Below are positions 1 to 61,934 of a DNA stretch of 64,000 bases, in pieces; the stretch's first letter is position 1, and every line of letters begins with the position of its first letter. The translations under genes and the position numbers were made by a program. The notes under the pieces are model-generated. The model was not told the DNA's origin, ran no database searches, and saw only the letters and a list, made by a program, of their open reading frames with translations. The stretch covers positions 7,068,001 through 7,132,000 of the forward strand of contig OZ004610.1 in NCBI GenBank assembly GCA_963924565.1. The letters are read 5' to 3'. This DNA comes from Ascidiella aspersa. Taxonomy: Eukaryota.

Positions 1-336
1 GATGCCGGATTGGAAATAATATATTTCTCTATTGATGACTAGAACTTAAAAATGACTGATTTTGACTCAGACAAGAAAGTCTAAAGTATATTGCTACAAT
101 TTGAAGTCATTGTTGTCATTTACGTTAAAGGGCGAGGAGATGTCTTTATATTTTACATAATCAGTTTGCAATTAAAGAACATTTTCAGATATGTCTTAAT
201 TTCAGTAACACTAGGAAAACTAATACGCTTTAAATCAGCTCTAAGTTTAAAATGACATTCTTTAGCAGCACCCAGCGGACGGGCGATGCTGCTAATCACG
301 TCCGCACGGTGGCAAAATAACACACAGACGACCAAC

Positions 337-489
337 CGATTTGTCTTCGATCCTGGAGAGGCAGACGCGCTTGAAGGCCTGAAAGAGTTGGGGCGTAAAG
401 TCCTGGTAGCGTTTGTGCATCAGAGAGCACATGTGGATGGCGCACGATACGTCGCTCATCTTCAGCTTAGCGTCAATCAGAGTGGACAC
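337..489 (-). CDS. UPF2: UPF2 coding exon 5 (VSTLIDAKLKMSDV...IEDKS)
   Basis: cctgcag| acceptor, TCG|gttggt donor, 153 nt; corresponds to ORF 292..489. Confidence 0.93.
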
Positions 490-2889
490 CTGCAGGACGA
501 AAAATAAGAAGAAATTTCAAAATAGGAATCGATCTACGAAACTGCGTTTACGCATTTGTTCTATCGAACATTTCCGCCGATTACAGCATTATTATACTTT
601 TATGAAGCATTGACGGGCTGGTAATAAGTTACAATACCTAACTATCTAATTAATGCTCTAACCCAGGGGTGGCCAACCTTTTCCTATAGTCGCGGGCCAA
701 AACCAACCTCAGAAACGTCTCTGCGGCCGGAATAATTTTAAACTGACAATTAAACATTTAAAAATCAATGAGTTTCAATGAGTCGTACAAGTTCATGACG
801 AGATGGTAATTTTCTAACCTGAAATCAGGGATGTGGAGTCGGTTAAAAATAACCCAAGTCGAACTCTGACAAATAAATTAACTTGAGTCAGCGTCCGGCC
901 AAATGTGCAATGAGTCCCAAAGTCCGGGTCCTACACTACAGCCGTATTTCACCCGTTTACTGAACAAAATTATGGTGGATATTCAGCAATTTACTCACAA
1001 GGGTGTCATATAATTCATCCACCCATGACAAGTAAAATGTTCTACCATACCATGCTATCCAAAATTACAAGTTGCGGCCTTATCAGTAAATTGATACTGT
1101 GCATGCTCGGGGGTAGTCTTACTCAAGTCCGGAGTCAGACTCTAGCAAAACAAACCAAACTCTATTGAGTCCCGAGTTTGACTGCGCCTTAGATTAAAAC
1201 AATATTAGAAAATTATAAAATAAATGAAAACTTACAACTTCTTGGATGTATCTTGTCAAATTGAGAGACTGAAATTCGTTTGACAGTGCAGTGCGTTGTT
1301 GCTCTGTTAACTTGCCCTAAAGAAAAATCATTATATGCTTGATTATTGTCTTTACGGCAGCTTTTACAAATTACATCTATTTTGTAATTTACTTGAAAAT
1401 CATAACCAAATGGCCTTGCTTATATTCACAGAAAATTATTTACTGAGACCTTATGCAGGAAATACACAATAAGATCTACAAAGAGGGAAGTTTATAGCAA
1501 AGAATCTACATTAACATAGTATTAACACCATTAAAATAAGAACGCCAAATACGCAATAATAACCACAACAGAATAAGATATAAAATTGTCAACCGTTCGG
1601 CATCAACAATTGGGCGCCCTAGTTTTAACGGCACCCCTTGCATGCAGCGGTTTTGAAACCCAATATTTTGCCCCTGTTTAGGATTAAGGTGAGTAATGGG
1701 ATGTCGTTAGAAATCCAATTAGGACATCAAAACTATGTGCAATATGTATACTGCATAGCAACTAATGATCTGAGCAAAATACAATACCGAGGGTTCTATA
1801 CCGGTAGTTTATAAAGATCGCATTTAGTATTTGGCTCTGTAGAACACCAATATTATTTTTGTGCTAACATATAAGTGTACCAGTTTTTTGACAAAAGATG
1901 TGTTCTTTTTTAAACTTGAATCCAGTTTCCTGAAGAAAACTTCATCTGGACGCTTTGTCGCTGCATTTTGATACTCAATCCGAATACTGGATTTCTGTTC
2001 ATTTCTTTTCTTTATCTCAACAATTAGTTGTAATGCTTGTTCCTAGAAGAAAAAAATAGTAAATCAAAATCACATGATGGGTATGTACGACATTATTTTG
2101 GCATTATCTGAACATAGTTCAGCTTGATAAAAATACATATAAACAAATATCTTCAATGCAAAATTTTTAGTTACTCAAAACAGCCAAAAAAACAATTACC
2201 ATAAAAATGTAATAAAAAAAAGAATATTTTAACAAAGTTATTATTTTCACATTTTATTTTATTGCAATAACTACATGGCAGATGGCAGAGTTATATGAAG
2301 CTGTAAATTCAAACATAGGGCAATTATTACTATAGGCATTGGGTATTTAATAGTTTATGGAAAACATTAATAGTTTATGGAAATTATGACAGTGCCCTAT
2401 GGAGCATTTACAGGATTCAGCCTGTTTTTTTTGTACAGAATTATTAGGAATTCCTCAAATAAAGTCAACAGAATAGCATATTTTGAGATTTGAGATTTTT
2501 AGGGATTTCAAAAATCTCTAAAAGACACTGTTTAAATCAGCTGAATTCTACATATCACACATCCATACATATATATTTCTGAGTTTAATTACCTTCTCCT
2601 TGGCAAGTTGTTCTTCGTCTTGAGCGGCTGACGCAAGACTTGTATCACCGCCTTCTATATAAAATATGCACTGATATGAGACTAAAACCAACGTCTAAAT
2701 AAAGGGCAGTTTACAGCATAATGTTAGGTCAGTAAAACTTTATATTTTACATATATATAACAGAAAGTCGCATGTTTATTAACGATTTAAAAAAACACCG
2801 GAACCTAAATGCTTAAAATATAAGTCAAACAAACCCTCAGTATGCATTTTCTGTACACCTTCAATCTTTGTATCTCCTTCTGTATCCAT
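337..2889 (-). CDS. UPF2: UPF2 / regulator of nonsense transcripts 2, 5' part (5 coding exons; continues beyond left edge)
   Basis: Spliced exons 2889-2835, 2654-2593, 2042-1881, 1316-1236, 489-337 all have GT..AG borders and compatible phases (1,0,0,0). They give MDTEGDTK...RPDEVFFRKLDSSLKKNTSFVKKLGKLTEQQRTALSNEFQSLNLTRYIQEVVSTLIDAKLKMSDVSCAIHMCSLMHKRYQDFTPQL, matching the recalled first MIF4G domain of human UPF2 (RLDSSLKKNTAFVKKL..TEQQR..LNLSKYI..EAKLKISDV). Confidence 0.96.
664..730. mobile_element. Truncated end of hAT MITE (same family as 27083-27802)
   Basis: CAGGGGTGGCCAACCTTTTCCTATAGTCGCGGGCCAAAACCAA..TCTCTGCGGCCG closely matches the reverse complement of 27737-27802. Confidence 0.7.
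826..945. mobile_element. Degenerate GGAGTC-repeat MITE-like element
   Basis: Starts CAGGGATGTGGAGTCGG with internal GAGTC/AAGTC repeats; similar motifs at 1120-1185; no TSD found. Confidence 0.35.
1236..1316 (-). CDS. UPF2: UPF2 coding exon 4 (GKLTEQQRTALSNEFQSLNLTRYIQEV)
   Basis: tttttctttag| acceptor, GTT|gtaagt donor, 81 nt; homologous to UPF2 TEQQR..LNLSKYI. Confidence 0.95.
1881..2042 (-). CDS. UPF2: UPF2 coding exon 3 (EQALQ...FFRKLDSSLKKNTSFVKKL)
   Basis: ttttttcttctag| acceptor, CTG|gtacac donor, 162 nt; contains the conserved LDSSLKKNT motif. Confidence 0.95.
2593..2654 (-). CDS. UPF2: UPF2 coding exon 2 (EGGDTSLASAAQDEEQLAKEK)
   Basis: ttttatatag| acceptor, AAG|gtaatt donor, 62 nt, open frame joining flanking exons. 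Confidence 0.82.
2835..2889 (-). CDS. UPF2: UPF2 coding exon 1 (ATG; MDTEGDTKIEGVQKMHTE)
   Basis: ATG at 2889; donor GAGG|gtttgt (phase 1) joins the next exon in frame; upstream acceptor tttag| at 2937-2936. Confidence 0.75.
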
Positions 2890-17899: not shown

Positions 17900-18059
17900 A
17901 TGGAATCGGCCCTCGACGTCCTCACAAAGGCGGCGCACTTCGTCGAAAATCAGCAACAAAATGGATTCGAGCAACGGCGAGCACATGCCCTACAGCAACA
18001 GCAGCAGTCGACTGGCAAACAACAGCACCCAGTCAAGGAAAATGGAGACGCCATTCCCG
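17900..18059 (+). CDS. VGLL4: VGLL4-like coding exon 1
   Basis: aggATGG start; MESALDVLTKAAHFVENQQQ...GDAIP; donor CCG|gtatgc phase 1; likely upstream acceptor atttttcag| at 17729. Confidence 0.88.
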
Positions 18060-24000: not shown

Positions 24001-27000
24001 GCAATATGCCTATCCCGAAACGTTTAAGCCTCGCTTGACGCAGCAGTTCTTTAAAGTGCCTAAGTTGCCCATGGCTTACCTTGATTTTGTCCGAGTTGTA
24101 AAAGCTTGATTTTTACTTACTATCCTGTTGCACTTTAATTTACTTATCATTGTCTCAGAGTTACGTTACACGTGACTATGTGTGTGTTTAGGCGAAACGA
24201 AAAGATCGCTATTAGGGATGACCAATATTTGGCATTTTATTCTGATAACGAGACCCGATATTTTGGACTAAATCTAAAAGTATCACGATGCGATCCGATC
24301 CGATCCGATCCGATACTGAATGAATTCACTGATGTGCCCAAACAAGAAAAACAACTGAAATAAAAACCTTCAAACGGATTTTTCGGACGAGTACCGATAC
24401 TACCACATGACATCAGGTTTAGGCTCCGATCCGATATTATCGTGGCATCAGGTATCGGCTCCGATCCGATATTATTATATATTACTGGACATCTCTAATC
24501 CCTATTATTTTAATTTGAGGCAGTTTCTTAACGTTTGTATGTGATTTAGGCTGCACTGGTTTCTGAACTAAACGAAAGATGACATTACTGTTGAATGCAA
24601 AAGTTTTAATGTCTTATTTAGCTGCGAGCGATTGAATGACATTTTGGTTATTGAGTTTTGTAAGATATTTCTCTTTACCTCTACGCTAGATACACATGGA
24701 AAAGACTGTTTTATTGGGCTGGTATTTTTAAATAGAATTCATGACATTTATTCTTATTTTAAGAACCAACAAAAAATGTGCAACTTTTATGGAACGAAAC
24801 GATCGGTTGTGTTATTACACTGTTTTACTACCTTTGCTAATATTTTGTTGTTATTGCAAATGATGTGCTGCAGTCCGCCAGATGAAATATTAATTGAATT
24901 ATTTCCTTGCCTGCCTGATTCAAATAATCGATTTGTAATACCCTGTCTTCTAAGTCTTTGAACTTGTCACGTCTTAAAATTCCATGAAATGCCACAAGAA
25001 AGTGCCATTTTCGAGGGTTTACACAATACGGTAAACACACTTTCGGTTTCCAAAGGGTAAACCCTCCAAAAAAGTAGCTTATACAATATACCCTAGTCTT
25101 TAACTTGCATTAAACCATTACCACAATTTAAAAAAAAAATAAAAAAAAGCCTGGAAAACTCATTCAAAGCCCGGTTTTCTTTTCAATATCGAGGCATACC
25201 GTACATATTGTATCTCATCGTCTTATCACAACAGCAAAATCCGCGCATAGATCTTCTCGGCTCGCCGAAATAACCTTGTCCTCCAAAAACGAAATGCTCG
25301 AAGCGAGACAAACGAAAACAATTCGCGGCCAAGCGCCTCTCAGTCTGAAGAGGTCCAACCAAAGTCGAAATTTCGATTTTAAAGCTATAGGTTTTTTTCT
25401 CCACGAAGCACTTGAACGCGAATCATTCTCAGCTTTTCGGTAAATGACATGACGAGTTTAGTAGGTAGGTGAAATAACACATTTCCACATATGGCTTTGG
25501 TATTTGCCTAAACCCATTTGTTTTTCACACTAAGATGTAATGCGTTAAGTGGTATGGTCATTTAGTCATTTAAAATAAATCTCTTCATGTTTTTAATAAT
25601 AAACCTGATTCATTTATTAGCCCGCCAGTCACGAAATAGTTTCAAGTATAATATCTTAGATGTATGTTTTGCCGACGATGGCTTTTTTTGGAATTCTGCT
25701 GATCGACTTTTTGTTTACGTGCCTGCTAGTTGTTAGCTTAATTTATAACAAGGACGCCTCTGATGTGTTAACCTAAAAACAAAACATAGACCGATATATT
25801 TTACCGCTAACAACTAGCAATAGTTTCTATTGATATATCGTTATCGCTAAATTCGGGTCGACATTTTACTACATTTTTCCCTAAAGACCAACAATTTTTT
25901 AGTTTTGTTTTGCGTCATGCTAGGTTGATTTCGATTTTATTTAATTACATTGAAATTTTTACCATATCCCAGATATATGTAAATCAGGTAACGATTGGCA
26001 AAAACGTAAAAAATCGGTCATCGACATCGTTCCAAAAAGTGATAATGGTCGAATCTTTTAACAACTCCTAAATAAGTTAGCCGTGGGAAAAACTAAATCG
26101 TCCACCTAAAGGAAATATCTGTCGTTTCATATCCATCATAGCCATTCGAAGAACTGGATTCCGCCTGAGTTTTTTTCAACCATATCAATTGTGCGCTCTT
26201 GTTTTTTAGGACACAACGGTGGCGACTATGAAAGGCAGTCCAGAAGCCTGGATTCAACGAGGCTTAAGGAACGACACGCAATCCTAAAAACAACTAAAGG
26301 TAGGTGGCCGTTTTTACATAGACGAATCGTAATTTGCAAAAGCCCTTTTCATGAAAAATGATATATTGCTTTCACAACGTTAAATATTATGCGACGGAAA
26401 TCATGAAGCAGTGTTGTACACGCATTTTTTTTATGAGAAACTTGGCTCAAGCCGAGTACTAAAAGTTTTGTTAAATTGTTACCATTTTAAGCCAATCTAG
26501 AGGGCGTGGCCGCAAAAATTTTTTCGGGGGAGTACCCACGGACCCCCCAATATTTCGGCTCTCTAAACTCGCCTGCGGTCTATGTTGCTTACCAAAAAAG
26601 TCGCCGCCCTTGCCCTGAAATCGCTTCGGCGTCCCTGAGTGCAGGTTGGCAGTAAGTATCCAATTATGGCCATGGTAAGTTATTACCGCTGTTAAAGAGA
26701 AATTTCCTCCCAAAAACATTGTAGTTTTACCCGTTTTGAAACGGGAAAGAAGTATAACATGTGGTATTCTGTTGTTTGTTTGCACCCCTGTCCTACGAAT
26801 ATTTTTAAAGCCTGGATTTTATTCCCCCCCAGTTGACTGAGACTGGCGATCAAATGTCCCTTTATGGGTAATGGCTCCCTTCTAACGTTGTTTTCGTGCT
26901 TCGTGTGCGATATTTGCATGAATACGAAATAGAAAAGGAAAACAGCGCGTTTCAAGCGGCTATACATATTTAAACCAGGGTTTCCCAAACTGTGGTCCGC

Positions 27001-45000: not shown

Positions 45001-48000
45001 CAATCACAGCTTTTCTTGTCTACCTCGTTCTTCGTCGTTACGCAAAAAAGCGCTTAAATTTCTGCGCAAATCTGACAGGCACTTTGACCTTAACTGCCGC
45101 TCGACAGACCTGCTTACACAGGCTGCTCCAAAGCGAATAAAAATAAAAAAAAAAGGTTTAGGCAGATTTGGAAGCGGTCAAAGGGGGTTGGGAAAAAAGC
45201 CCAATTAAAACTTGGTAGGTAAATGTTTTAAAGATACTGGATTGCTAAAAAAAACTACCTCACTTTTACTTGGCGAGGGAGCAATCTGTTTTTAAAGCAT
45301 CCAGTCATGGACTAGTTTTAGCGGGTCCATATGAAGGCTTAATTGAAAAATATTCATATATAATTACAACAGTGGTATGAATTTTTCAAAAAAAAGTGTG
45401 GTTCAATTGAAATCAGCTTTGGTGCCATCTTCCTAGTAAATTTACTTTGACTTTATTCAAGCTTTACATTTGATATAGCAAGCAAGCAGGTTTCTTCTTC
45501 TGCTTTATAACGTCAGTTGATGGCATCCTCTCTAAACATTGCATGCCGACATTATTTCAGGCGGACAAAAAATATTTTTAGGGGGTGAGCGTTAAAAATG
45601 AACCCCCACTGTACTTACACTGTCGTGGTTGAAAAAGTACTCCAAACCTATACACGGGGGTGTAAAAATAGTTATAAAAGCTAGTTCCATGAAAATGCCG
45701 CAAACAACCACCCAGGGATCTTGTTTACGCCAGAGCATGGGCGGGCGCGCATTAGTCGACGCCGAGTTTTCAATCATAAGCTGTCAGGCCCGGGGACACT
45801 TCGTGACGCGGCCCGGCCCCCTCCCCTCTGTCACAGTTATCTCAGTCCCCAAGCGCTTCCGACCAAAGCCACAAGAGACGCCTTACCCACTTTACCCGCT
45901 CGCTTGCAAGTCACGTCTCTCCAGATAACTGTCACTCGGCTTTTTCCTGCGCACGTGACCTCACTCGCAAATCGCCTGGCTGACTGTGTCGATCTGACGG
46001 GCGAGCTACTGTGTGCTGTTTTCGGCTGGGGCGTTGGCCTAATCGCTTAGGGCGCGCGCCAACTACGATCAATAGACGTTTTGAGAAATGCAAGGGCAGC
46101 GTGCCGCCATGTCTAGAACCTATGGATTATACCAGTGTTTTTATCGCACTGAAATTTGGACTGCCGTTTGATTTGGTTTGGGTCGCCGATTGCAGTAGTT
46201 CACACGGTTGGATTTGTTGGGATTAGCTCTGAGCGAAATTTCTCAAAGAAAAAAAGAACAACGTAAAAGCAATACGAAGACATGTGAATCGTAGTAGTGA
46301 AAAAACGTATTTCGGGGCTCAGCAGAAATTTTACAGATAATGGGTGGCAGCTAGCTCTAGAATTAGTAAAAAAAATGCTTAAATGAAAACACTTTATTTT
46401 AATCCAAGTTATTTGTTCTATAAGGATTTAAGTTAAGTCGAGTCATTTGTGTAAAAAATTAACTCAAGTCAAGTAATTTTGCGCAAAAGACGTAAATCAA
46501 GTCAAGTCATTTGAAAAAAGTCACATTTACTTGGTCATTACAACACTACTGACAGAAATCGTACATGCGCGTCAATCCGTCCAGTTTCAGTTGTACTTTG
46601 CCATATCCAACTGGCGAGACCGACAAATCTCGCGCGGTCTGCCAGCATATGAATAGGGGCGTTTGTTCTAGGTTTGTCCACTGCAGCGCATTCAGCCATC
46701 TGTACTATGAATGCGGTCGACTCTCTGGACAAAGTCGTTTATCTGTAAGGTCGTCTTTACAATAGCGACTTAGGTTTTAAACAAGTGTGTTGCCATACGC
46801 CAGCTTTAGTGTGATTGTTCGAAATGGACAGTCAATCACATAAAAAGGTTTAACAATTAAACCCACAAAGCCTTGAGTCCTTTAAAGTAAAAAATTGAAA
46901 TGGTCGATTCCTGCTGTAAAGTTCTATAGAAACTCGTGTAGTAAAAAACAGGCAATCCATTACGTGGCTGTGTAGACCAGAGACTACAGGATAGGGAAAT
47001 ATGTGAAAGTCAATGTCGGGAAAGGTGCAATTCGAAATAACTTTCTGTGGTAAATAAAATGACAGAAGCTTTTTGTACATCGCCCAAGCGTTACAAAATA
47101 ATGCCGCTTTTGAGCTGGTTTTATCCCAATTCGTGCGCGTGTTCGCCGCCCTGCTCTGGTTAAGTAGCAAGTAGCGTCGGGCGTTGCACCGGCAGGCGCG
47201 GATATTCCCCGGTTATAAGTGTATTGATCGCACCGTTCTCTGGCCCGCCAACCCGTCATTTGCACCTTCAATTTCGCCCGCGCCAACTTCAGCCTTGTCA
47301 CTGCAATCTCCTCTAAGAGCCCGCCGGCTACGCGCGCCGCTCTCTTGGCTAAGCGGTTTAGCCTGGGCCCAGCCCAGTTCAGTCCTCGCCGAGGCTGCGT
47401 GCGGGCGCGCTCGCGCACATACACACACGCGCGCGAGCTTCGTGGGTGTGCCGCCGCGCTCGGGCCGTTTCCGCAGCGCCCGCCGCTGTTTACAAGCGGG
47501 GCTGTGTGTGCGGAACACACTCCTTGCGAGACCGACTCGAAAAAGCCGAGGCGGCGACTGGAGAGCAGTTCGCCCGTCGCCGCTTTTCAGCCTGCTAGCA
47601 GTCGACTAGTCGGCAGTTACTATTAGCCTTTGACGAGTTTTCGCCTTGTTTTATTTGTCAGCCAGGTATCTATTTTCAGCGTTCGGTTTTGTACAGTTTT
47701 AAAGTTCAGTTTGGGATCTCTGGATGTTGCACCTCGCTTTACAGTCAGCTGAGTTTTCTTGGCGTTGCCATCACGTTTTTTTTCCTACTGCGTTTTCTTT
47801 CCTGGATTTACTGCGGTTTTGATTACAAGTTAGCTCAGACTGGGAAACGAAGATTTGGCGCAGCCATGTCAGTTAAATTTACTCTCGGATTAGGTTGCTT
47901 GAATTTTAGTTGTTTGCTGATATATTGTTAAAGCAAAGCAAATCAAAATCGTAGCCAGGTTCAAGCGTCGAACGTACGTCTTATTACAGTTGTGTTTTAT

Positions 48001-51000
48001 CATAGTGAGCAACCGACGCAGTGTCATTTCGATGTTAAACGCTTTTTTTAAAACACCAATGCTTCTCCAGCTCGCCGTTTTAAAAAATCGCGTTTCCTAG
48101 TGTCGTGCGGCTTTCCATGGCAGTTTAGGCGGAACTGGGGTTTTGCCGGGATTTGCGCTTCGAATCCCCGCGGTTTGACGATCGATCGAGTCGATGTCGC
48201 GGCCGTTTTTGGCGGCGAGTCAAGTGCGCGCACAGGATGGAGGAATCGAGTGGACAGGTGTGTCGAGTGCTCGGCGCGCTAAGAGCGTGCGAAAATAATT
48301 CGATTTCAAGTCAAAACAAAGGCCGTCCCCTCGTCGACTCGAACCCGAGAGGCAGCGGCCTCTTGTGACGTCACACTTCGCTAATCCCCCTTCCTCCCCT
48401 CGTTGCAGCCCTCCCTGTGGGAGCATTTTTTGCGCAGGCGCGGGAAATGACAACTTCCGTGTTAGAAGGAAGCTGCTAACCTGGTCCTAGCTTTGTTTTT
48501 AGATCGGTCACACGCGCCCGGCGTCTATTGTAAAACTTAAACTCCCATTGGCGACATAATTTTATACCGACCGTGTTACATTCTCCGCGTTTTAAAATTA
48601 TTTTTTCGCCATAAAATAAACAGCATCTCGTTAGTATACTAACATCATATTTTTTTCTTGTAGTTGCACATTAACGGAACGCTTTAGTATTCGTGTTCAA
48701 GGTCATGCGCGTGATTTAAAAGGTATCTTTCGCGAAAAATCAAGTTTTGCAGTACAACTAATTTTGGTCTTACTCTAAAAAAGTATCATTTTTTTGCGGG
48801 CTTTGCGTTAAAAAATCAGCGCGAAAAAAACATCGCATTTTTAGCCCTTCCAGTCCACTTTAACCCCAACTGCACAACAAACCACCCTTTTTTTCTGCTC
48901 AAAATCCCCATAGATTGCCGACTGCTTCCCAGTCAACTGTACCAAAACAAAGTCGGGCCACCGGGGTCGTTCCAATATCTCGCGACGCGTCTTTAAAAAA
49001 CAAACGCGACCGCGCGGCCTCAGCAGCGCTAAGGGAAACAAAAGCGCGCGCGCCAAACGCCGATCTTCTGTCGCAACCACTTTAAAATTTTGCCGACGCC
49101 TTGGCTCCGGGAAATTCTAGGTCGTGGGGCGCGAATTGAAACCCGAAGCCTGGCTGCCTTGCGATTTTCCGGCCGTTTTCAGACGCCCTTGTCGCCGTTT
49201 AAGTGACTGGGCGAGGGTTTAGTTTAATGGACAACCCGATTGCCTGCGATTTTCGCAGGATAGATGCGTGTTAAGAGGTTTTATCTTGTTGGATGATTAA
49301 AACTGCTGTTTAGCAAAATGACGCTTAAAAATGTGAAGCTAATGTAGCGGTATTTTTGAAGCACATTCTTTAAATTGCCAACTCGTGTTGTTTGATGCAC
49401 ATATCGCCCAATGTAAAGTTACAAAAACCCTTAAAAGTGCAGCATCTCATTTCCTATTTTATGTCATCCGTTAAATCGAAATCGCGAAACCGTCTTCCAG
49501 CAACAACTAACTTGATCAGCCTTCGGTTAACCACGCTCTGATAAACGCTGAAGCATACAGTTGTAATGCTTTTGGTGTCGTCGTTATGCTTGTTGTTTAG
49601 TTTTGCGAAAAGTTTAGGATTTTTTGCTGCGACGTTTTTTGCAAATCACGTTACCACTTTCGGGAGCCGTTGAGAAAGGTCAAAAACAACATCTGGCCGT
49701 CGCACGACTCCTGTCAAATTCCGCCGCCTATCGATCCTTAAGGCGCCGCCGTGTTGCAAAAACCACGAACATGCCGGGCCAGTTGTTTAGTTCGCGTGGC
49801 CCTATACTTCAAAAGAGCCGAATACACGCGACGTAAATGCAAAAATGTTAGCACGCGTGTTTATTTTTGCGCTCAGTTGTTTCCTTTATTTGTTTGTTTG
49901 AAGTCCCATGTGTGTTTTCGCTTTCGAAATTGTTGCACTCAAGGTACGCTCTTAGAAATCTTCATTCCAATGAAAGAGAGATTGGCGCAGAATGGTTAAA
50001 GTGCAAATCTAAACTAAAATAGTGAAAGGTCAAAATGCTGCGTCCAGTTTGTGTGCAGTCGTTTGTTGGCCAGCATAGCTTAGTAATGTTACAGAAAATG
50101 CATTGCAACTACAAAGCCATTTATTTAGCTAACTTTGTTTAAGCTAGGCTTTCGTGTGAACACAGCCTTTAAAGCACGGACGTAGGGCAGCTACAGCCTA
50201 CTACAAGTTTTTATCAGTGTTTGTGTTATTATACATTAACTTTTTTGTTTACCACACTAACGAACCAAAAGCAGTTAAACTGCTTGCAATTTATGAAACG
50301 GTCTTAAATCGCGGCGAACTCTGACTTTTACCAGAAAACACCAAACAAATGCCTGAAACGCAAAACTGTTTTCGCGCAGATGATCAGGGCGCCGCCGTAT
50401 CGAGTAACAGCCACACGAAAAGCAGCAGTCAAGCCCCTCTGAACCACCACAGCCAGCAGCAGCAACAGCACCATTACCAGCAACAGCAACAACACCTCCA
50501 TCCCAGGCCAAACCCGGAAAGAATGCGTCTGAACGATCGCGTGGCCAGCGACGAAACGCTCCTGTCGATTCCTGCAAGTCACCAGCACGCCACAAACAAC
50601 AACAACGGCCTAAGTCACCACCACCCGCACCCGCGCCTTCCCCAGCAAAGACTCTACTCCGACGACCGGCAGCTCCTGGCCTCGGCCTACGGCGCCGGCG
50701 CCAGGAACCGTACCCCTGATTCGCCGCCCCTGTCGCCCGGCAAGCGGCTCCAGTCGCCCCACGCGGCCATGGACGGCGACCAGCAGCAAAGGACAATGGT
50801 CCTACCTCACCCCCTGACCTCGCTTGCGAGCGTAGCGGGCCACCCACTCACCCACATCAACCCCGCCAACCCCATGTTGCCCTTCATTCACCCAATGATG
50901 TACCCCGCCTTTGATCCCGGCCTTGCTGAAACCCTAGCGAGGCAGCAGGGGCACCTTATCGGCGGCGAGGCCGAAAAACAACAGCAAAATCCGCAGCAAC

Positions 51001-54000
51001 AGCAGCATTCGCCAGGATCGCCGGCCAACGTCGCGTCATCGAGCGCCGGTTTTCTGCCAGCTGGACTTCAAGGCTACATGTACCCGCTGGCGGCCGCCGC
51101 TAACCCGGGCTATCTGATGGGCGCGCGGCAAGCTGCGTCGGGCGCACAGCAACCCGGATTCGGCCTGGCCGACCTATCCATGTTTCTGCCGCAGCAGCTG
51201 GCCGCGTACGGCGCCGCCAACGTGCTTCAAGGCCAGCTTCCGGGCGCCCTTGGCGGTCTGAGTGAGCACGAGAAGCGGCTGTATGAGAGCCTACAGCCAG
51301 GCTTCGCCCAAACGCCGGCTCACCTCCTAGCAAACCCCTACTTCAAGAGCTTCTGCGCGCCAGGCCTGGACGCCGCCGCTGTGGCGAAGGACGCAGCAGC
51401 AGCGGCGGCCGCGGCAAGCCAGCATCTACCAGCAGCGGCTGCGAGTGGCATGCCAGCAATGCCTGGATACTCTGTCGACTTCCTGCTGAAGTACCAGGAG
51501 GCACTGAACAGCGAGGCGCTTAAAATAAAGGGGATGTCGTCCCCCCAGTCGTCCTCTTCCCCGGCGCCGCGACGCTCGATCTCCCCCGACGCCCCTAAAA
51601 AGTCGGGGCCGATTCCCGGCTACCCCCTGGCCTACTTGCCCTCGTACCTGGCTAACCCGGCCTTGAGCAAGTCGCCCGTTCCCGAGCGCAAAGCTTCTAC
51701 CCCGAACATGGCCGCGGCGCACAAGAACGGCACCGGGGGACCATCCCCTCACCAGGAACCGGCCAGGCCATCTGGGTACCCGAACAGCCACGACATAATG
51801 AATGGCGACGAGGCGCGACGAAGACTTATGGCGCTTGCTCAAAGGTATTTTTATGTTAGTATGTTACAAATAGAGTTAGCTCCACCAGGCAACATATCAA
51901 TAGATTGAAATCGCTCTTCTTGTGAAAACGAAGTATAAACCGACGTTTCGGCAGCAGATACCAGCTGACCTGATGAAGTTCTACTTTGTTTACACCATAA
52001 GGTCGATGTCTATCTATTGATATTAGCATGTTGTCTGGAGTTTGTGTAGTTCCTTATAGGACAAGTAGAAAAGCCTGGGCAGTAATGCGTAACACCGTGT
52101 TACTGTAAAAATTAAAATAAATATTAAAGTTGAAGTGAATAGGAAAAACATGGTTCGAAGCGTTCACACATTTTGTCCGGCTTAAAATCCACTAAGCTCA
52201 AGGTTTAAAATATGCGTAAATTACTTGTTATAGAGCGCTCAGTTTTGTTCTGAAAACTCATTGCTTTTACGAACTCACTTAGTTGCTTTGCTCGTTTCGC
52301 ATTTTCGTCTCGCGAACGGATAATGGCGTTTTGTGTTATAGTTTTTCCGTTGATTACACGCCGAGCAATCAGCTTGCAGTGTACAGTCGGCGTTGTAATG
52401 ACTTGAGTCAATGACTTGACTTGAATGCACTTAGGTTGAAATTAAGTGTTTTCAGTAACATTTTTCGTAAAATTGGTTTATTTATCCATATTTTTGTACA
52501 TAAAGCAATTTGCTTGCCTTCTATTGCGTTTTTGGTATTTTTTAGTTAGTGTATTGTTCATAATCGGGCGAATTTACCCAATTTTAATAGCTTAACATGC
52601 AATTTTCATGACATGGACTTGGAATTAATTATGACTGGACTGGGACGTGACTTGTTAATTGTTCAAAAATACTTACTTGGACTAGAGTTATTTTAAAATG
52701 ACTTGTTTACAACATTGAACTACAAGCAGCTGGGAGTAATTTGCAAAACGGCCAAAAACAAGTCCAGGTCATTTTACGCGCGCCGCCGCAAATAGATGAA
52801 TTGCAAGGCGCAGAACCGGGCCTTGTCAATTCCTCGAAGCTCGCAGTATGCGCGTCCTATTCGAAATCTGAGTGAAAAAGCGTAGGGTTTTGGCAACAAA
52901 CCAGCGCCGGGCGCGCGTGCAAAGCGCTGACGCAACGCCGCGCCGCCATTGTCGGTCATCAATGGCTTGCATTGTTCCGAGCCAGTTCCGGTCGACTTGG
53001 CCGGTGACAGAGCCTGTTTACGGACTTTGCGCGGCCTTCGACGAAAAAAGCAGCACTAGCGGCTTTACGCTGAAGGCCGCGGCTTTCGCGATACGGCAAC
53101 TGATTAAAGCGTGTATACGCCAGCAGCAGTAGGCATCGCGGTTCCGCGTCGGCGCGCCGGTTTTATCTCACTTCATCCTTGGGCCACTTGTTTACAGAGC
53201 GACCGTTTGGTCCTCCTGTCCTCGGGAGTAACTTTTACGTCTTGAGCAGGCCGCTGCTCGCTTCGTTGTTTTGTCGCGCTTCGAAAGCTTGTTGTTTCGC
53301 CGCCCGCGCCCTGTTTTGACAAGGTCCTTTTGTGGATTGCCAAGGCGGAATTCGCGCAGAATGCCATTCTGGCATGTTGGGCCGTGGTTATTCGCGCTGC
53401 CACAGCTTTATTTTACTGAGGCGCAGCAGAATCCATGTAGGCCAGTCGTGGCAACGTGTTACATTTTCTCATCCATAACTAGCGTATTTTCACCATCCGT
53501 TTTTGATGGCTAGTTAAAACGGGCCGGTATGTTCGCAACGATTTTTTTGGCTTTACCACTACAAAAGAGCAACAGGCCATCCTTTTTCAACCACCACTTG
53601 TAATTTTCCACGACCTGGGCGGTTTAAATGGCCACTTTAAAAACGGCGTGTCTCGTTTTTTTTTTCTGTGGCGCTATTTTTGGTCGGCTAGAAAAGGGGC
53701 AGCTGGTTTTAAAACAGTCAAGCCTTGGAGAAAAAAAGTTTACTTTTTTTAAGATGGTATTATGTCGCTTTTTAAAAATCGTCAACGCTGCCTGTCCAGT
53801 GCCAAAAAAAACTTGTTGTAGTCTAAAAGACTGCCCAATTCTAACTGACTTGGGCGTGGAAAAACAAGTCGTTTAAAATTAGGAAAAAGTGTAAAATATA
53901 CCGCACATTTTAACTCGCTTAAATTAGTGTGCTGTACCTCAGCCGAAAGTAGGTCACTTTCGCCGCCACGCGTTATTGCAAGCTTCTCAGATCGTGGCCA

Positions 54001-57000
54001 TGCAATTCGACTGTACCGTTCGCTGTCGATTGTGTTTGCGAAACACGAGGCCTGAGGGCTTGGCGCAATCGACCGAGTGCTCAGCCCGTAATCGCACACT
54101 GTTTATCGTTACCTGGCTTTGCTGTGTCGAATCACGGCGATCTTGCAACGGCAAAGGCAACACCAGCGCAAATCCGATCGATATGCTCAAAAAACAGTCG
54201 ATTTTTACTATTTTTTTTTCGTGATATAGTAAAGCTTTCGTATGGGTTCGCAGTTTGCTCGCGTTAATTTCATTATAATTTTTTAAAACATCGCCTGTTT
54301 AATACACTTATTTCAACTTAAAATGAATTCCAAACCCCTAAATCGCATGTTATATTATCAAAGCATTTTACGAGTAACTACATCTTCCAACCCACATAAT
54401 TCTGCTCCAACGTTTAATTTAAACTTATTCAATATAATTGAGTATAGCCAAGTGTTTGACTGAGTCAAAGTGAAACCGGGCCAAACTGTTTTTGCTCTAA
54501 AGTAAACAATGGCAAAACGCTGTTAGCTCCGACATTTGTGCGAAATCGAACCGTATTCGTCGACCAGCATTCCAGCAATGCCTTAATGCGCGGTAAGCAG
54601 TGCCCATCTACTATTACCTGTCCATCCCTGCGTTTTTTTCAAGACGCTGAAAGAATACCTCCAACAAATCGCGATTGAGAGAGAGGGAAGGCCGATTAAC
54701 ATTCCTCCAACCCGAGCCGCGACCGCCATGACTTAAGGTCCCCCGGCATTCTTGGCGGGCCTGGCCGCGCCCCGGTCATGCCCCCCCCGGCTTGTTTACA
54801 GTAGCCTGGCGATTAGCGTTACGCTCATCTGTTCTTTGGGATTTTTTACCCGATCGGGAGATATAACCACTGTGTCAAGGTTAGAATTAGATGAATGGCT
54901 GATTGCCGTGTCGGGTTTGTGCCGCGGAAAGAGTAAAAACATTCTACGATTTCCAAACTGCTGGCTAAGCAAAGAAATGCAGCAATGCTGGGCGAGGTTT
55001 GGGGGAAAAATTCCAAAAATAAAGAATGCAGGTCAAAGGGTGGAAAAAAACGAAAAAAATGCTATCCAAGATGCGGCAAAAAAACTAATAAACAGATAAA
55101 AAAAAATAGTTTGTTCCAGGCAGAGACAAATGTGCGAATGCGCGCTTCGAAAATATTTTTCGATCCTGTGCGAGAGTTGCGTAGGTCTGAAACACGCCGG
55201 CGCTTTTTCACGCGGCCGAAAGCAAATTCCTGTGCAGAGTTTCAAAATATTCGAAAAGTTTTCCGATAACAACAAAGCCCGCAATTTAATCCCGATAAGA
55301 TTGCGAGCGTTTCTCAACAGCACTTTCGCTTAAACGCGCCCAAATTCCGGCGCACGGGCCTTGAAACGACTAGCGCAAGTCGTGCTCTTGATACGCATGA
55401 GCCCTGGTGAGAAATAGCCTTCGAAGGTGTTTATCTCCAGGAAAGTAGCCGTTTTTTGTCCAGGTTAACCACATATTTGAAATGCCGCATCTCCGATACG
55501 CAGAGACCATGAAAAACGAAAGAAAAAAGAAAAACGCCGCTCCATTCTTGTGATCTAAATGCAAACACACGTTTTTTACCGAGCATTTGGAGTTTATGGA
55601 ATCGATATAAAGCGAAATGGATTTGATTTGATTGACGAAAAACCCTTGACTAATTTTCCAGTTTTGTTTGTGAAATTCCTCTTGCCGTAAGTTGCCACTA
55701 ATGTTATTTAATACGTTGTGAAAAGTGCGAAAATTAACTTCGCCTGAGTACCATATAGCTTGCTTATAGTTATGAGACGTCCAAATCAATAGATTGGCAG
55801 TGTTAAACCTTTTTGGGATTCCTTATTTGGGGAATCTTAAATAAAATCTAAACAAGGTGTAACTTGAAAGAAAACAAATTGCGCCTCTAGGTTAGCGTCT
55901 TATTTAGAAGTTCAATAAAAGAAAAATTCGTAAAAAAAATCGAAAATTTGTGAACTCCGAACTAATAACCTTCATTATATTTAAAACCTCCACCTAGCCC
56001 CCATTGTGGGAGGATATTAAAAAAAAAACTTTAACGTTGATCTTCCAACTAAAAAATTAAAAAAAAATCAGTTTCGGTTGTTTATTGGTCGAGCGAGAGA
56101 AAGTAGAAATAGGCCGCTGGGGCGTCAAGCAACTTTATCAGAGGATACCGCGGCATCCGCCCTTAATAGTGACCTGGGTGGTGGCGATTGGCGGTTGCCT
56201 TCCCCCTACACCTGTTTCCATTTCCAGAAGAGAAGTGAAGTGCGAAATATAGTCGAAACCGTGTCCTTATATCGCTGTTAGTCGCCCGCCAAATCACGGC
56301 TTTGAGAAGTGGTTCTTGTCCTTTCACCCTTTCTGCACCCTTTTGAAATCGCAAAACAAATTTCTCGGCAGCCTCCATGTGTAGAATTAGATAAATAACA
56401 GAAAACATGACAAAAAAACGACAAACGAATGGCGGTGTATAAATATTTTTGTAAACTTTACCAATCCCGATTTACCTTCCACCGAAAAAAATGCCTGGAA
56501 AAACTTCTAGTTAAAGTCTAAAAGACTTCTCAATTCCAACAGACCCAGGCGTGGAAAAACAAGTGAATAAATCAGAAGGATTGGGAAAACTAGGTGCCTA
56601 TGGCTATAGCGTATTTTAAACTCGCATAGATTAGTGTGCTGTGTGTATAAATATTTTTGTAAACTTCACCAACCCTGATTTTGTTCCCACCCAAAATTCT
56701 ATAAGCAGATTAAAGAAAATGCGCAATCTCCCGTAGATAACAAGCCCTGGCTTAATATAGAGAGGTGCCAAGATAAGCATCAGTGCTAGCAGCGGGATGC
56801 AAGACCAACCCGAGCGCCGCTGTTTGTTTTGCTTGCTTCGTGCGCAAAAAAGCTCCGATGACGACTTGGCAGGCATAATGCGGGACACCTGTCCGACAGC
56901 ACGGTGCGCTGTAGCAGCTGCAAAGATCGTCAAAGTTTCACAAACAAGCCCCAGTCGCTTGGTTCGCGTATATGTCCAACACACCTTCGGTTCTGCGCCT

Positions 57001-60000: not shown

Positions 60001-61934
60001 TCGTCAATGGGAAGAATACGCCACTACACCTTTACACTTCTTTTACATTTACTTTCTTAACTTCAATGGTGAAAATAACGGCCCTAATAGACGTAAAAAG
60101 CGACATGCTTTATTGTTCAAATGTTTCGGCAAATGCTCATGCCATCATCAGTGATATTTGGGCCGTTATTTTCACCATTAAACTTACGAACAGATCCGTA
60201 TATAATGTTTCTTTACTTTCTTTTAGAAAAAAAAATAAAAAAAATCCATTATTTCGCAGACCTCGCAACCCGTTGGACTTGTACAGTTCACCATACAAGG
60301 GACCCCACGACCGTACCGACCGCCGCTCTCCCTCCCCCTACACGGACCGGCGCCGAGTCTCCAGGGAGCGTTCGCCCCTCCGGGGACTTCCCCAGGACAA
60401 GCCGGCCAAAAAGCGATCGCACGAAGGCTTCGGCGACATTAAGTCCCGGAGCCCGAGTCTTCAACAATCCGACGGGAATCGAAGCACCAAATCCCCGCCG
60501 ACGCACCGACGAAGCTCAAGCCCTCTTTCGCGCGGCGGACAGCGGCACAGCCAGACCGCCAACCCGTACCTGGCGCCGCCGGGCTCGAAACCGGGCCTGG
60601 GGCACGCGGAAAAAGAGGCCCAAGTGGCCCTAATGGCCCAAACGCACCCCTATCTGTTCCCCCAAGGAATTGGAAGTCTGTCCTCACCTTACGCGCTGCA
60701 GTCTTACCTGCGCCAAAGCGAAGCGTCGTCGGCCGCCGCCAAGGCGTCAGTAGCTGGCTTTGTTCCTCCCACTTATTCCACGGCGCCTGCTGCCGCAATG
60801 TACCGTGCCCCGGCCCCGACTGACGTGAGTATATATTTGTACTTTTTAAATGCCCTTGCCTCTAACCGTTTGCTGATAGTTTTTATTTACTTGCCTCCAA
60901 CAGTTTTACCTGTTTACGTTAACAGTTTAATTGTTAGATTCGATTGCCACACATTTTCCGACTTCCTGGCTTTCTCTCATTTTTCTCTGAACAAATATTT
61001 GCTTTTTTTTCTCATTTATAAAATGTCTCAAAATATTTTTGTTTTTTTCACTTAACTTCAGCCTGCATAACCTAATGGCAGTGGAACAGTAACCCAGCTA
61101 AACCGATGGTAATTTCAAAATTGTCACTTATTTCGTTTGCCACAAAGAATTAAAATTATCGCTGCAATTTTCTCGTCAATTAGTTAGAATACATGTGTCA
61201 TGAGGATAATAATATAATATATTGGCTAATAATATATATGGGATAATAATATATATTTTATAAAAAAAACAGCATGCTTTAAAAAAAACAGCAATCATGG
61301 GATAATAATATATATTTTATAATATACCTTTCATTACCGCATTGAGTTTAGATGCGAAACGTAATAATTAAGGCGACGCCCTTTGGAAAATTTAAACGAC
61401 CCACCAGGGCGTCGCAACGGACAGATTAAGAACCTAAGGCCTACAGAATTACCGCTATAACTACCTTACTTGTCCAAAACTTATTTGTTATACCTGCCTT
61501 GGTTTTACAATGGCGCCTGATCGTTTTACGAACGCCTCGGTTTTCGATAGCTCGTTTTTGAAGAATATGCCTTGTAGTTTATATTGTGAAAAAATCAGCG
61601 TGAAAGCTCAACAATTAGGTGTTTATTATGCCTGAATATTAATGTTTATAAAAATAAATGTTCATATTTTTCATATGTTTTGCTAAATATAGGTTTGCTG
61701 GATTGCTAAAACCAATGCAAGGACTATATAGGCCGACTATGAGTCGCAGCGCTACTTAACCCAACTAAACACGTGGCTTTGACGCAGGCGGCGGCCCTGG
61801 CCGAATACTCGCGTCTTACTGGAATCCACCCTTACGCAATCGCCCTGATGATGCCCCAGCAGCAGCAGCAACAGCAGCAGGCCGCCTTCCGCCAATCGGT
61901 GATTGCCCACGCTACACCCACGACCGCTCAGCAG
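17900..61934 (+). CDS. VGLL4: Vestigial-like 4 / Tgi-like TEAD co-repressor, 4 coding exons (794 codons), 3' end beyond window
   Basis: Four motifs are collinear with recalled human VGLL4: MESALDVLTKAAHFV ~ METPLDVLSRAASLV; PPLSPGKR ~ PPISPSKRK; SRERSP ~ RERSRSP; FRQSVIAHA ~ NRPSVITCA. Exon phases match (1,2,0). The TDU motifs are not in the window, so the call rests on these motifs. Confidence 0.85.
23122..23136 (+). promoter_or_regulatory. Tandem TEAD (M-CAT) site
   Basis: CATTCC-tgg-CATGCC with 3-bp spacer inside a GC-rich island (23050-23230). Confidence 0.5.
24213..24497. mobile_element. hAT (Ac-like) MITE with CCGAT repeats, 285 bp
   Basis: TIRs TAGGGATGACC / TAGAGATGTCC; TSD ATCGCTAT / ATCCCTAT (7/8); internal (CCGAT)n and duplicated CATCAGGT..GGCTCCGATCCGATATTAT. 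Confidence 0.85.
26976..28093. mobile_element. hAT MITE (outer element, ~390 bp without insert)
   Basis: TIRs CAGGGTTTCCCAAA at both ends; perfect TSD ATTTAAAC (26968-26975, 28094-28101); subterminal GGTCCG repeats. Confidence 0.92.
27083..27802. mobile_element. hAT MITE nested in the previous element, 720 bp
   Basis: TIRs CAGGGGTCGACAAC / CGGGGGTCGGCAAC; perfect TSD TTGTACAG (27075-27082, 27803-27810); subterminal GGCCC repeats. Confidence 0.92.
30785..31235. mobile_element. CAAGTCAAGT-family MITE copy (opposite orientation to 5352 copy)
   Basis: AACAAGTCATTTTG...AAGTCAAGTCAAG...CAACACTG end; left border degraded. Confidence 0.7.
33232..33400. repeat. Tandem duplication, ~85 bp unit x2
   Basis: TTTCGGGCTTTCTGTAA(A)CCTGCGAATGT..AAAAAAGGGGG..AAAT occurs twice. 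Confidence 0.85.
35440..35482 (+). CDS. Candidate alternative first coding exon of VGLL4-like gene (MDFKTSTLFQKLRK)
   Basis: caagATGG Kozak context; ends AAAG|gttttt in phase 1, compatible with the acceptor at 50334; follows a CpG island (34920-35400) with GATAAAA at 35212. The donor is weak. Confidence 0.4.
35591..35850. repeat. Tandem duplication, ~130 bp unit x2
   Basis: GCTTGTACGCCAAAGATGAATTGACTCTTGCCTTGGAATTAC identical in both units. Confidence 0.9.
37101..37133. repeat. (CCTTA)6 microsatellite
   Basis: Perfect pentamer run read directly. Confidence 0.95.
38624..38682. repeat. Tandem duplication ~31 bp x2
   Basis: TTTTTGTTTTAAAAAATCCC(T/C)CCTGCGA twice. Confidence 0.85.
39339..39514. 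promoter_or_regulatory. CRE/AP-1 cluster (candidate enhancer)
   Basis: TGACGTCA at 39339 and 39444, TGACTCA at 39508. Confidence 0.5.
41782..41895. repeat. Tandem duplication ~61 bp x2
   Basis: GTGTCC.G.TAAAAATCCACAAAT...GTCCCCATAT.TG twice. Confidence 0.75.
42323..42600. mobile_element. Old hAT-like MITE remnant (family shared with ~45290-45610)
   Basis: Begins CAGGGGTTCTTA; TTTTTCAAGAAAAGTGTTTAATTGAAAATCGCTTTGGCGCC aligns with 45381-45426. Confidence 0.55.
43805..44157. mobile_element. Palindromic (foldback) MITE with TA target duplication, Tc1/mariner-pogo type
   Basis: TA|CAGCAAC ... GTTACTG|TA; long degenerate inverted arms (AATTGAAATTGC; TTACCCACCCGA..CCCTAACCCAAATAA vs TTATTTGGGCTAGGG..TCGGTTGGGTTAA). 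Confidence 0.7.
45290..45610. mobile_element. Old hAT-like MITE remnant (family shared with 42323 copy)
   Basis: Collinear similarity to 42360-42600; ends ...CCCCCACTG. Confidence 0.5.
46370..46548. mobile_element. CAAGTCAAGT-family MITE, partial
   Basis: Repeated CAAGTCAAGT(C/A)ATTT units ending GTCATTACAACACT. Confidence 0.6.
47100..47665 (+). promoter_or_regulatory. CpG island / candidate internal promoter with non-coding first exon
   Basis: Very GC/CpG-rich block ending at donor CCAG|gtatct (47665/47666); splicing to 50335 would use the ATG at 50349. Confidence 0.4.
50335..51844 (+). CDS. VGLL4: VGLL4-like coding exon 2 (1510 nt, Q/H/P/A-rich)
   Basis: Branch/acceptor ctgacttttaccag| at 50334, phase 1 (G+AA=Glu) in frame with ORF 50349..51908; donor AAAG|gtattt phase 2; strong GC3 coding bias. 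Confidence 0.9.
51879..52040. repeat. Long hairpin with rearranged hammerhead-ribozyme core (Penelope-like relic)
   Basis: Inverted arms (CTCC..CAACATATCAATAGATTGAAATCG..GTGAAAACGAAGTATAAAC vs GTTCTACTTTGTTTACAC..CGATGTCTATCTATTGATAT..ATGTTGTCTGGAG) enclosing GACGTTTCG-GCAGC-loop-GCTGA-CCTGATGAAG. Confidence 0.6.
52388..52717. mobile_element. CAAGTCAAGT-family MITE copy
   Basis: CGGCGTTGTAATGACTTGAGTCAATG...AAAATGACTTGTTTACAACATTG, collinear with the 5352-5619 copy; TSD not retained. Confidence 0.75.
53800..56690. repeat. Dispersed direct duplication (~140 bp at 53800-53937 and 56492-56642)
   Basis: Shared AGTCTAAAAGACT..CAATTC.AAC.GAC..GGCGTGGAAAAACAAGT..AACTCGC.TA.ATTAGTGTGCTGT. The second copy is flanked by a further repeat GTGTATAAATATTTTTGTAAACTT.ACCAA.CC.GATTT (56436, 56643). 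Confidence 0.8.
54568..54582 (+). promoter_or_regulatory. Tandem TEAD (M-CAT) site
   Basis: CATTCC-agc-AATGCC with 3-bp spacer; further CATTCC at 54700 and CATTCT near 54747. Confidence 0.45.
58988..59016. promoter_or_regulatory. Double CRE with interleaved TEAD-like half sites
   Basis: TGACGTCA at 58988 and 59009 (21 bp apart, two helical turns) separated by ATGCCACATTCTT; CATTCC near 58963. Confidence 0.5.
59452..59502 (+). repeat. Poly(A) + (AG)n low-complexity tract
   Basis: Read directly. Confidence 0.85.
60260..60824 (+). CDS. VGLL4: VGLL4-like coding exon 3 (565 nt, RS/SP-rich)
   Basis: ttatttcgcag| acceptor phase 2 (AG+A=Arg), donor GAC|gtgagt phase 0; the GC-rich core of ORF 59880..61055. 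Confidence 0.9.
61788..61934 (+). CDS. VGLL4: VGLL4-like coding exon 4 (147 nt, polyQ and RQSVI motif)
   Basis: ttgacgcag| acceptor phase 0, donor CAG|gttagt; AAALAEYSRLTGIHPYAIALMMPQQQQQQQQAAFRQSVIAHATPTTAQQ. Confidence 0.85.

What the first reader, a model, noticed from the sequence alone, without database searches (positions are those of the whole stretch)
17900..17950. VGLL4/Tgi N-terminal motif resembles a Mad/Mxi Sin3-interaction helix
LDVLTKAAHFVE aligns residue for residue with the Mad1 SID IQMLLEAADYLE (hydrophobic-x-x-L-x-x-A-A-x-aromatic-hydrophobic-E). The match is closer than for human VGLL4 (LDVLSRAASLVH). The motif sits on its own exon, so promoter choice could add or remove a Sin3/HDAC-recruiting module. 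I am not aware of this segment being assigned as a SID.
Basis: inference. Interest (0 to 1): 0.7.

Follow-up and report, generated by a model that had tools for sequence, protein, structure and literature searches.

The report
VGLL4's optional Sin3-docking helix
The first coding exon of this animal's VGLL4 gene, a brake on tissue growth, encodes a short motif conserved from molluscs to vertebrates that likely docks the Sin3 gene-silencing complex, so the choice of first exon would add or remove that silencing arm.

Summary
The motif is real: ATG at 17900, LDVLTKAAHFVE at 17912-17947, on its own spliced exon of a VGLL4/Tgi gene (likely a tunicate) whose Tondu motifs lie about 12 kb past the window. 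The core L-D-[VI]-L-x-[RK]-A-A is kept in molluscs, a nemertean, echinoderms, amphioxus and vertebrates; all 9 clusters examined hold isoforms with and without it. The pattern alone is near chance in this genome (63 hits, control 39), but the same scan found the genome's likely Mxd and Mnt SIDs (8 and 6 of 14 residues identical). The human peptide is a buried, weak SIN3A-PAH2 phage-display hit (2 of 4 replicates, medium confidence; Benz 2022 supplement). A PAH2-peptide model gave weak support (0.46, best control 0.03). Against: position 5 is S, T or K, not the canonical hydrophobe; Tgi pull-downs, BioPlex and HuRI show no Sin3; a motif-less transcript is unproven in this species. Verdict: likely a low-affinity Mad-type SID (about 0.55); my paper searches found no text that assigns it. 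New member of a known kind, and a direct test of how VGLL4 represses.

The parts
17900..18059 (+). Coding part of the motif-bearing first coding exon of VGLL4/Tgi (53 codons plus 1 base, phase-1 donor)
   Evidence: Translation; donor confirmed by 3 RNA reads and one contig; 5' end of the exon not mapped
17912..17947 (+). LDVLTKAAHFVE, candidate Mad-type Sin3-interaction helix
   Evidence: binding inferred
26210..26299 (+). Second coding exon, 90 nt, keeps the frame
   Evidence: Acceptor from RNA loose ends; donor predicted from sequence
47420..47665 (+). Candidate non-coding alternative first exon in a GC/CpG-rich stretch; would give a protein without the motif (next in-frame ATG at 50523)
   Evidence: Sense-oriented read depth 1.32 in bin 47420-48083, GC 0.58-0.59, donor-like site at 47665/47666; no junction read seen; start coordinate is only the bin edge
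50380..51844 (+). Large low-complexity exon, shared with Clavelina VGLL4
   Evidence: ends predicted from splice signals
60260..60824 (+). Internal coding exon
   Evidence: ends predicted
61693..61934 (+). Internal coding exon with RQSVI (61890-61904), the IRF2BP/Pits-binding RxSVI motif; the two Tondu motifs lie beyond the window at G000:C4:7144326 onward
   Evidence: ends predicted

Best explanation
The exon at 17900 encodes the conserved N-terminal motif of VGLL4/Tgi, which likely folds into an amphipathic helix and binds, probably weakly, the PAH2 domain of Sin3 in the Mad/Mnt orientation, so that isoforms carrying this exon would bring Sin3-HDAC to TEAD-bound genes. Shown: the motif, its exon, the gene, conservation, isoforms with and without it in other animals, an intact Sin3 PAH2 in this genome. 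Shown by others in vitro, weakly: selection of the human peptide by PAH2. Inferred: helix register (L5, L8, A11, A12, V15 facing the cleft), low affinity from the polar residue at position 5, recruitment in cells, repression, and an isoform switch in this species.
For: (1) Among 25 aligned motif-bearing sequences L5, D6, L8, A11, A12, V15 are invariant (rows were chosen by a regex on most of these positions, so V15 is the unselected one); these are the positions of the published PAH2 consensus, in which L12, A15 and A16 of Mad1 are the three essential ones (passage, PMC7948954). (2) 8 of 14 residues are identical to this genome's likely Mxd SID and 6 of 14 to its likely Mnt SID; those two share 7 of 14. 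(3) Human VGLL4 4-19 is a confidence-2 SIN3A PAH2 hit in the nuclear sublibrary, counts 2|-|-|14, with the consensus match DVLSRAA in register with MNT ETLLEAA and PHF12 ELLIAAA; PHF12, a curated ligand, had a mean count of 6.5 against 4.0. (4) Complex model: 0.46 against best control 0.03, runs agree in at least 93% of contacts, partner pLDDT at least 61; the mark was reached by 51 of 78 solved and 2 of 108 mismatched pairs, but at 0.60 or under by only 5 of those 78 and by all 4 mismatches that passed (of 180); eukaryote counts 39 of 65 and 2 of 126; peptides untested; PAH2-SID complexes are solved, so the pass may be from memory. (5) PAH2 here is 81 of 85 identical to the Clavelina domain modelled, which is 72 of 85 identical to mammalian SIN3A PAH2. 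(6) 9 of 9 clusters examined hold isoforms with and without the motif.
Against: Position 5 is S in 44, K in 3 and T in 1 of 48 motif-bearing sequences, against a hydrophobe in both published consensus forms; in TGIF1 that position is needed for binding. On the MXI1 matrix the motif scores 4.2 (window) and -0.1 to 2.8 (7 relatives) against 15.9 for MXI1, 9.9 for MXD3 and 3.5 for PHF12; 0.3% and 1.4% of 104,475 background 11-mers score as high as the window and the vertebrate form. The phage hit is thin: one library, no overlapping peptide, counts under the screen's cut-off, so one of its two criteria is probably the motif match itself (my reading); the 76 of 118 SIN3A rows I saw include signal peptides and membrane proteins. 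The row lists no BioPlex, HuRI or other evidence for the pair. Tgi pull-downs gave four high-confidence partners, none Sin3A. Xenopus vgll4 lacking its N-terminal part still expanded pax3, an activation read-out.
Confidence: 0.55

Rival explanations
1. The helix binds some other, unknown partner (another corepressor or helix-binding hub, a degradation factor, or VGLL4 itself); PAH2 binding is a side effect of any amphipathic LxxLxxAA helix.
For: D6, R/K10, M-E-T-P and the polar position 5 are strongly kept although the MXI1 matrix disfavours D, V and K/R there; the PAH2 bait picks many unrelated helices; no Sin3 in Tgi pull-downs.
Against: No other partner turned up (Atlas search of residues 1-30 gave no usable hit; no PDB relative); the nuclear-library consensus itself has D/E at that place.
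Confidence: 0.22
2. The motif is a CRM1 nuclear export signal that sets the location of this isoform.
For: Spaced hydrophobes fit several NES classes if Ala or Thr is allowed (class patterns recalled). I recall a report of nuclear export of VGLL4 (Chen 2004); the paper is not held, so this is recall only.
Against: No strict NES class fits (0 of 6); the invariant Ala-Ala is typical of SIDs, not of export signals; two paper searches (listings, plus passages of one paper) showed no mapping of an NES to this stretch.
Confidence: 0.12
3. It is a Sin3 ligand, but for PAH1 or in the reverse (HBP1/KLF) orientation.
For: PAH1 motifs have small residues where this one does (passage); the window's S-A-L-D-V-L-T-K-A can be laid on the reverse consensus in part.
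Against: The reverse consensus needs Ala where most animals have Pro (22 of 24) and a large hydrophobe where the motif has Ala; the only binding datum is for PAH2. PAH1 was not modelled.
Confidence: 0.11

Closest known systems
Type I Sin3 PAH2 ligands: Mad/Mxd, Mxi1, Mnt, Pf1/PHF12 SIDs (ELM LIG_Sin3_1 as named)
   Same: N-terminal position on a short first exon, hydrophobe-x-x-L-x-x-A-A-x-x-hydrophobe spacing, similar hydrophobic moment (0.50 against 0.51), 8 of 14 identity to this genome's likely Mxd SID
   Different: Polar residue (S/T/K) at position 5; basic residue at 6; V at 11; sits in a cofactor without a DNA-binding domain; binding shown only by a weak screen hit
VGLL4/Tgi family (Pfam PF15245)
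   Same: Two Tondu motifs, RxSVI, the conserved N-terminal region (inside the Pfam model; noted without a function in Tgi), alternative first exons
   Different: About 1,100-1,200 residues as in Clavelina against about 280-430 elsewhere; no function was found in print for the N-terminal region
Known Tgi/VGLL4 corepressor links: CtBP (PIDMS) and Pits/IRF2BP (RPSVIT)
   Same: Short linear motifs in the disordered part that recruit repressors
   Different: Those motifs lie in shared exons; this one is isoform-specific and would link to Sin3 directly rather than through Pits

Membership tests
VGLL4/Tgi | Two Tondu motifs | tested here: met
   (E 2.8e-12 to 4LN0 chain C); Pfam match of the 65-residue piece is 24.7 bits, under the 27 cut-off
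VGLL4/Tgi | Motif exon and Tondu exon belong to one gene | tested here: met
   Same strand, frames compatible, one Clavelina protein holds both and matches the exons between; only the first junction is read-confirmed
Type I Sin3 PAH2 SID | L-x-x-A-A core (Mad1 L12, A15, A16) | tested here: met
   L8, A11, A12
Type I Sin3 PAH2 SID | Hydrophobes at positions 1 and 11 | tested here: met
   L and V in 48 of 48 (L was part of the selecting regex, V was not)
Type I Sin3 PAH2 SID | Bulky hydrophobe at position 5 | tested here: not met
   S 44, K 3, T 1 of 48, T in the window; Thr tolerated in 1 of 2 MXI1 tiles. Hence filed as SID-like, not as a canonical member
Type I Sin3 PAH2 SID | Amphipathic helix | tested here: met
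   Computed moment 0.50; helix formation itself not measured
Type I Sin3 PAH2 SID | Direct binding to PAH2 | tested here: inconclusive
   Weak screen hit for the human peptide; weak model, 0.46 against 0.03
Type I Sin3 PAH2 SID | Sin3/HDAC-dependent repression in cells | not testable with these tools
   No data found in the searches
CRM1 nuclear export signal | Four spaced large hydrophobes | tested here: not met
   0 of 6 recalled classes strictly; 6 of 6 only with Ala/Thr allowed
Sin3 PAH1 or reverse-orientation ligand | Binding to PAH1, or reverse helix direction | not tested
   Only PAH2 was modelled, and no interface was given

The most novel reading that the evidence does not exclude
VGLL4/Tgi has carried a direct Sin3-HDAC docking helix on an optional first exon since the bilaterian ancestor, so promoter choice toggles it between an active TEAD corepressor and a mere YAP competitor; this would be a missing arm of Hippo default repression and could explain why VGLL4 represses in some settings and activates in others.
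Probability: 0.4. Interest if true: 0.75.

Novelty: new member of a known kind. Interest (0 to 1): 0.55.

Why it matters
VGLL4-TEAD default repression is what YAP mainly exists to oppose in mouse liver and lung (passages, PMC9851404), and VGLL4 loss gives resistance to TEAD inhibitors (passages, PMC11387499). Which corepressors Tgi recruits was called unclear in 2019 (PMC6430605); CtBP and Pits were found since, with genetics short of conclusive. A SID on an optional exon gives a 12-residue, two-substitution test of a direct HDAC link and says that isoform identity matters in VGLL4 experiments.

Tried and rejected
Pattern match as proof: rejected, near chance in this genome. Motif as a PDB or Pfam family of its own: nothing. 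Second copy of the exon in the genome: none found. No RNA holder was listed by the index. The profile search with the alignment looked only at proteins of 2054-5000 residues and found none, so it says nothing. The broad representative search never ran, so arthropod, cnidarian and sponge sequences were not seen; conservation in Drosophila rests on one passage. The SIN3A/B pull-down supplement of PMC8143632 could not be read, a human effector-domain tiling paper and Chen 2004 are not held, files 13, 14 and 16 of Benz 2022 were not searched, and bioRxiv supplements (the Tgi mass-spectrometry table) are closed; any of these may bear on the claim. Three look-ups of earlier findings returned nothing.

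Full report
Observation. No Tondu motif lies inside the window, but the VGLL4 profile hits G000:C4:7144326 on the same strand, about 12 kb past the window's end, where two Tondu motifs stand; that piece matches VGLL4 proteins (267 hits) and PDB 4LN0 chain C. Clavelina VGLL4 (P0034, 1173 aa) begins with nearly the same motif and matches three exons in the window and the Tondu exon, so the exon belongs to VGLL4 and the animal is likely a tunicate. An RxSVI motif (RQSVI, 61890-61904) is present.

Exon structure. Three reads of RNA run X4 (35 laid, about 6% of the run read) leave the genome at 18060 and continue into window 26211; one contig of run X3 ends its match at the same place. Exon 1 ends in phase 1, exon 2 is 90 nt, and the next predicted exon at 50380 takes up the frame. 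The 5' end of exon 1 was not mapped. A GC/CpG-rich stretch at 47.0-47.7 kb has sense-oriented reads (depth 1.32, against 1.48 over exon 1 at a stricter setting), a donor-like site and no ATG between 47510 and that site; it is a candidate start for a motif-less isoform, without a junction read.

Conservation and isoforms. Of 183 stored VGLL4 hits and cluster members, 48 carry L-[DE]-[VI]-L-x-[RK]-A-A in their first 80 residues; the others are fragments or start differently. Named carriers include molluscs, the nemertean Lineus, sea urchin, amphioxus, Clavelina, fishes and newts. In all 9 clusters that I chose for look-up, annotated isoforms with and without the motif join the same downstream sequence. 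Two promoters with different N-termini are already published for mammals and Xenopus (passages, PMC12922143), and the N-terminal region was noted as conserved in Drosophila Tgi with no function given (passages, 10.1101/847707). I saw no arthropod or non-bilaterian sequence myself.

Is the likeness to a SID more than chance? As a bare pattern, no: 63 genomic hits against 39 for the reversed pattern, 22 of them by eye from two repeats. I read the context of 32 of the 63 (the first 30 given as loci, plus 2 picked by eye because they looked like SIDs and lay near bHLH matches). The two picked ones begin 9 and 2 codons after a Met and lie 12-15 kb upstream of bHLH exons on the same strand; I name them Mxd and Mnt from recalled likeness. 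The VGLL4 motif shares 8 of 14 residues with the first and 6 of 14 with the second; they share 7 of 14 with each other. The one consistent departure is position 5, a hydrophobe in the published consensus (passages, PMC7948954 and PMC8657803) and S, K or T in VGLL4. In the SIN3A PAH2/MXI1 mutational scan (supplement file 1, parts 22-23, PMC12102759) Thr scored 0.34 in one tile and 0.015 in the other, mean 0.18; Ser 0.02; Lys about 0. On that noisy matrix the window scores 4.2, seven relatives -0.1 to 2.8, PHF12 3.5, MXD3 9.9, MXI1 15.9: a weak SID at best.

Binding evidence. Benz et al. 2022 (PMC8769072; passages of the text and supplement files 9 and 15) never mention VGLL4 in the main text, but list human VGLL4 4-19 as selected by SIN3A PAH2 (295-383): nuclear sublibrary only, counts 2|-|-|14, confidence 2, no overlapping peptide, no prior evidence, not in BioPlex or HuRI. 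Among the 76 of 118 SIN3A rows I saw, 18 have medium or high confidence in that sublibrary, including MXD3, MNT and PHF12; VGLL4 has the third-lowest mean count there, next to PHF12. Other libraries gave many implausible helices. The complex model of Clavelina PAH2 (81 of 85 identical to this genome's PAH2 pieces; 72 of 85 to mammalian SIN3A) with window residues 1-32 scored 0.46 against a best control of 0.03; runs agreed in at least 93% of contacts, partner pLDDT at least 61. The mark was reached by 51 of 78 solved and 2 of 108 mismatched pairs, but at 0.60 or under by only 5 of the 78 and by all 4 mismatches that passed (of 180); peptides are untested, alignments were not used, and like complexes are solved. 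It is weak support.

Against. Streptavidin pull-downs of N- and C-tagged Tgi gave four high-confidence partners, Yki, Sd, CtBP and Pits, with no Sin3A. Deleting the N-terminal part of Xenopus vgll4 left pax3 induction intact, though that is not a repression assay. A low-affinity SID could be lost in such pull-downs; that is inference.

Mechanism. Most likely (0.55): VGLL4 sits on TEAD through its Tondu motifs; the N-terminal motif folds on binding into the PAH2 cleft with L5, L8, A11, A12 and V15 inward; Sin3-HDAC1/2 is recruited alongside CtBP and IRF2BP; isoforms from downstream promoters lack this arm. Rivals: another partner (0.22), a CRM1 export signal (0.12; no strict class fits), PAH1 or reverse orientation (0.11).

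Novelty. Searches for VGLL4 with Sin3 or SIN3A (16 and 13 papers, listings), Tgi with Sin3A, VGLL4 with HDAC1 and VGLL4 truncation or Gal4 tests showed no text that assigns this segment as a SID; subscription journals and several supplements were out of reach. The motif class, the gene and the alternative promoters are known, and the binding hint is already deposited. What is new is tying them together. New member of a known kind; interest 0.55.

Noticed in passing
window 295-516 and 1827-2042 (-): Exons that look like the N-terminus of UPF2 (recalled likeness; Pfam gave no supporting match), head to head with VGLL4.
   Followed up: partly
window 50380-61934 and beyond: This VGLL4, like Clavelina's 1173-residue one, is about four times the usual length through low-complexity Q/A/P/S-rich exons that are still 40-58% identical between the two.
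   Followed up: no
G000:C4 about 7150500-7166800 (L005-L006, - strand): At least four intronless tandem ORFs of about 470 codons that look like MFS transporters (recalled likeness) follow the gene.
   Followed up: no
window 26234-26240: The RNA loose-end consensus departs from the genome after 23 matching bases of exon 2 (3 reads): another allele, another junction or noise.
   Followed up: partly
L049 (G000:C5:5712445, -) and L051 (G000:C7:21930599, -): Likely SIDs of this genome's Mxd and Mnt genes, each upstream of a bHLH exon.
   Followed up: yes
P0060, P0047 and other vertebrate hits: The alternative vertebrate N-terminus (MDLLNYQYLDKMNNNIG) is itself strongly conserved from fish to newts and may be a binding module of its own.
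   Followed up: no
PMC8769072 supplement file 15: TCF23 and TCF24 (LDVLVLAA, LDVLLLA), TAF1L and LIN54 are stronger SIN3A PAH2 hits of similar shape with no listed prior evidence.
   Followed up: no
G000, 22 of the 63 hits: Two dispersed repeat families happen to match the codon pattern of the motif.
   Followed up: no
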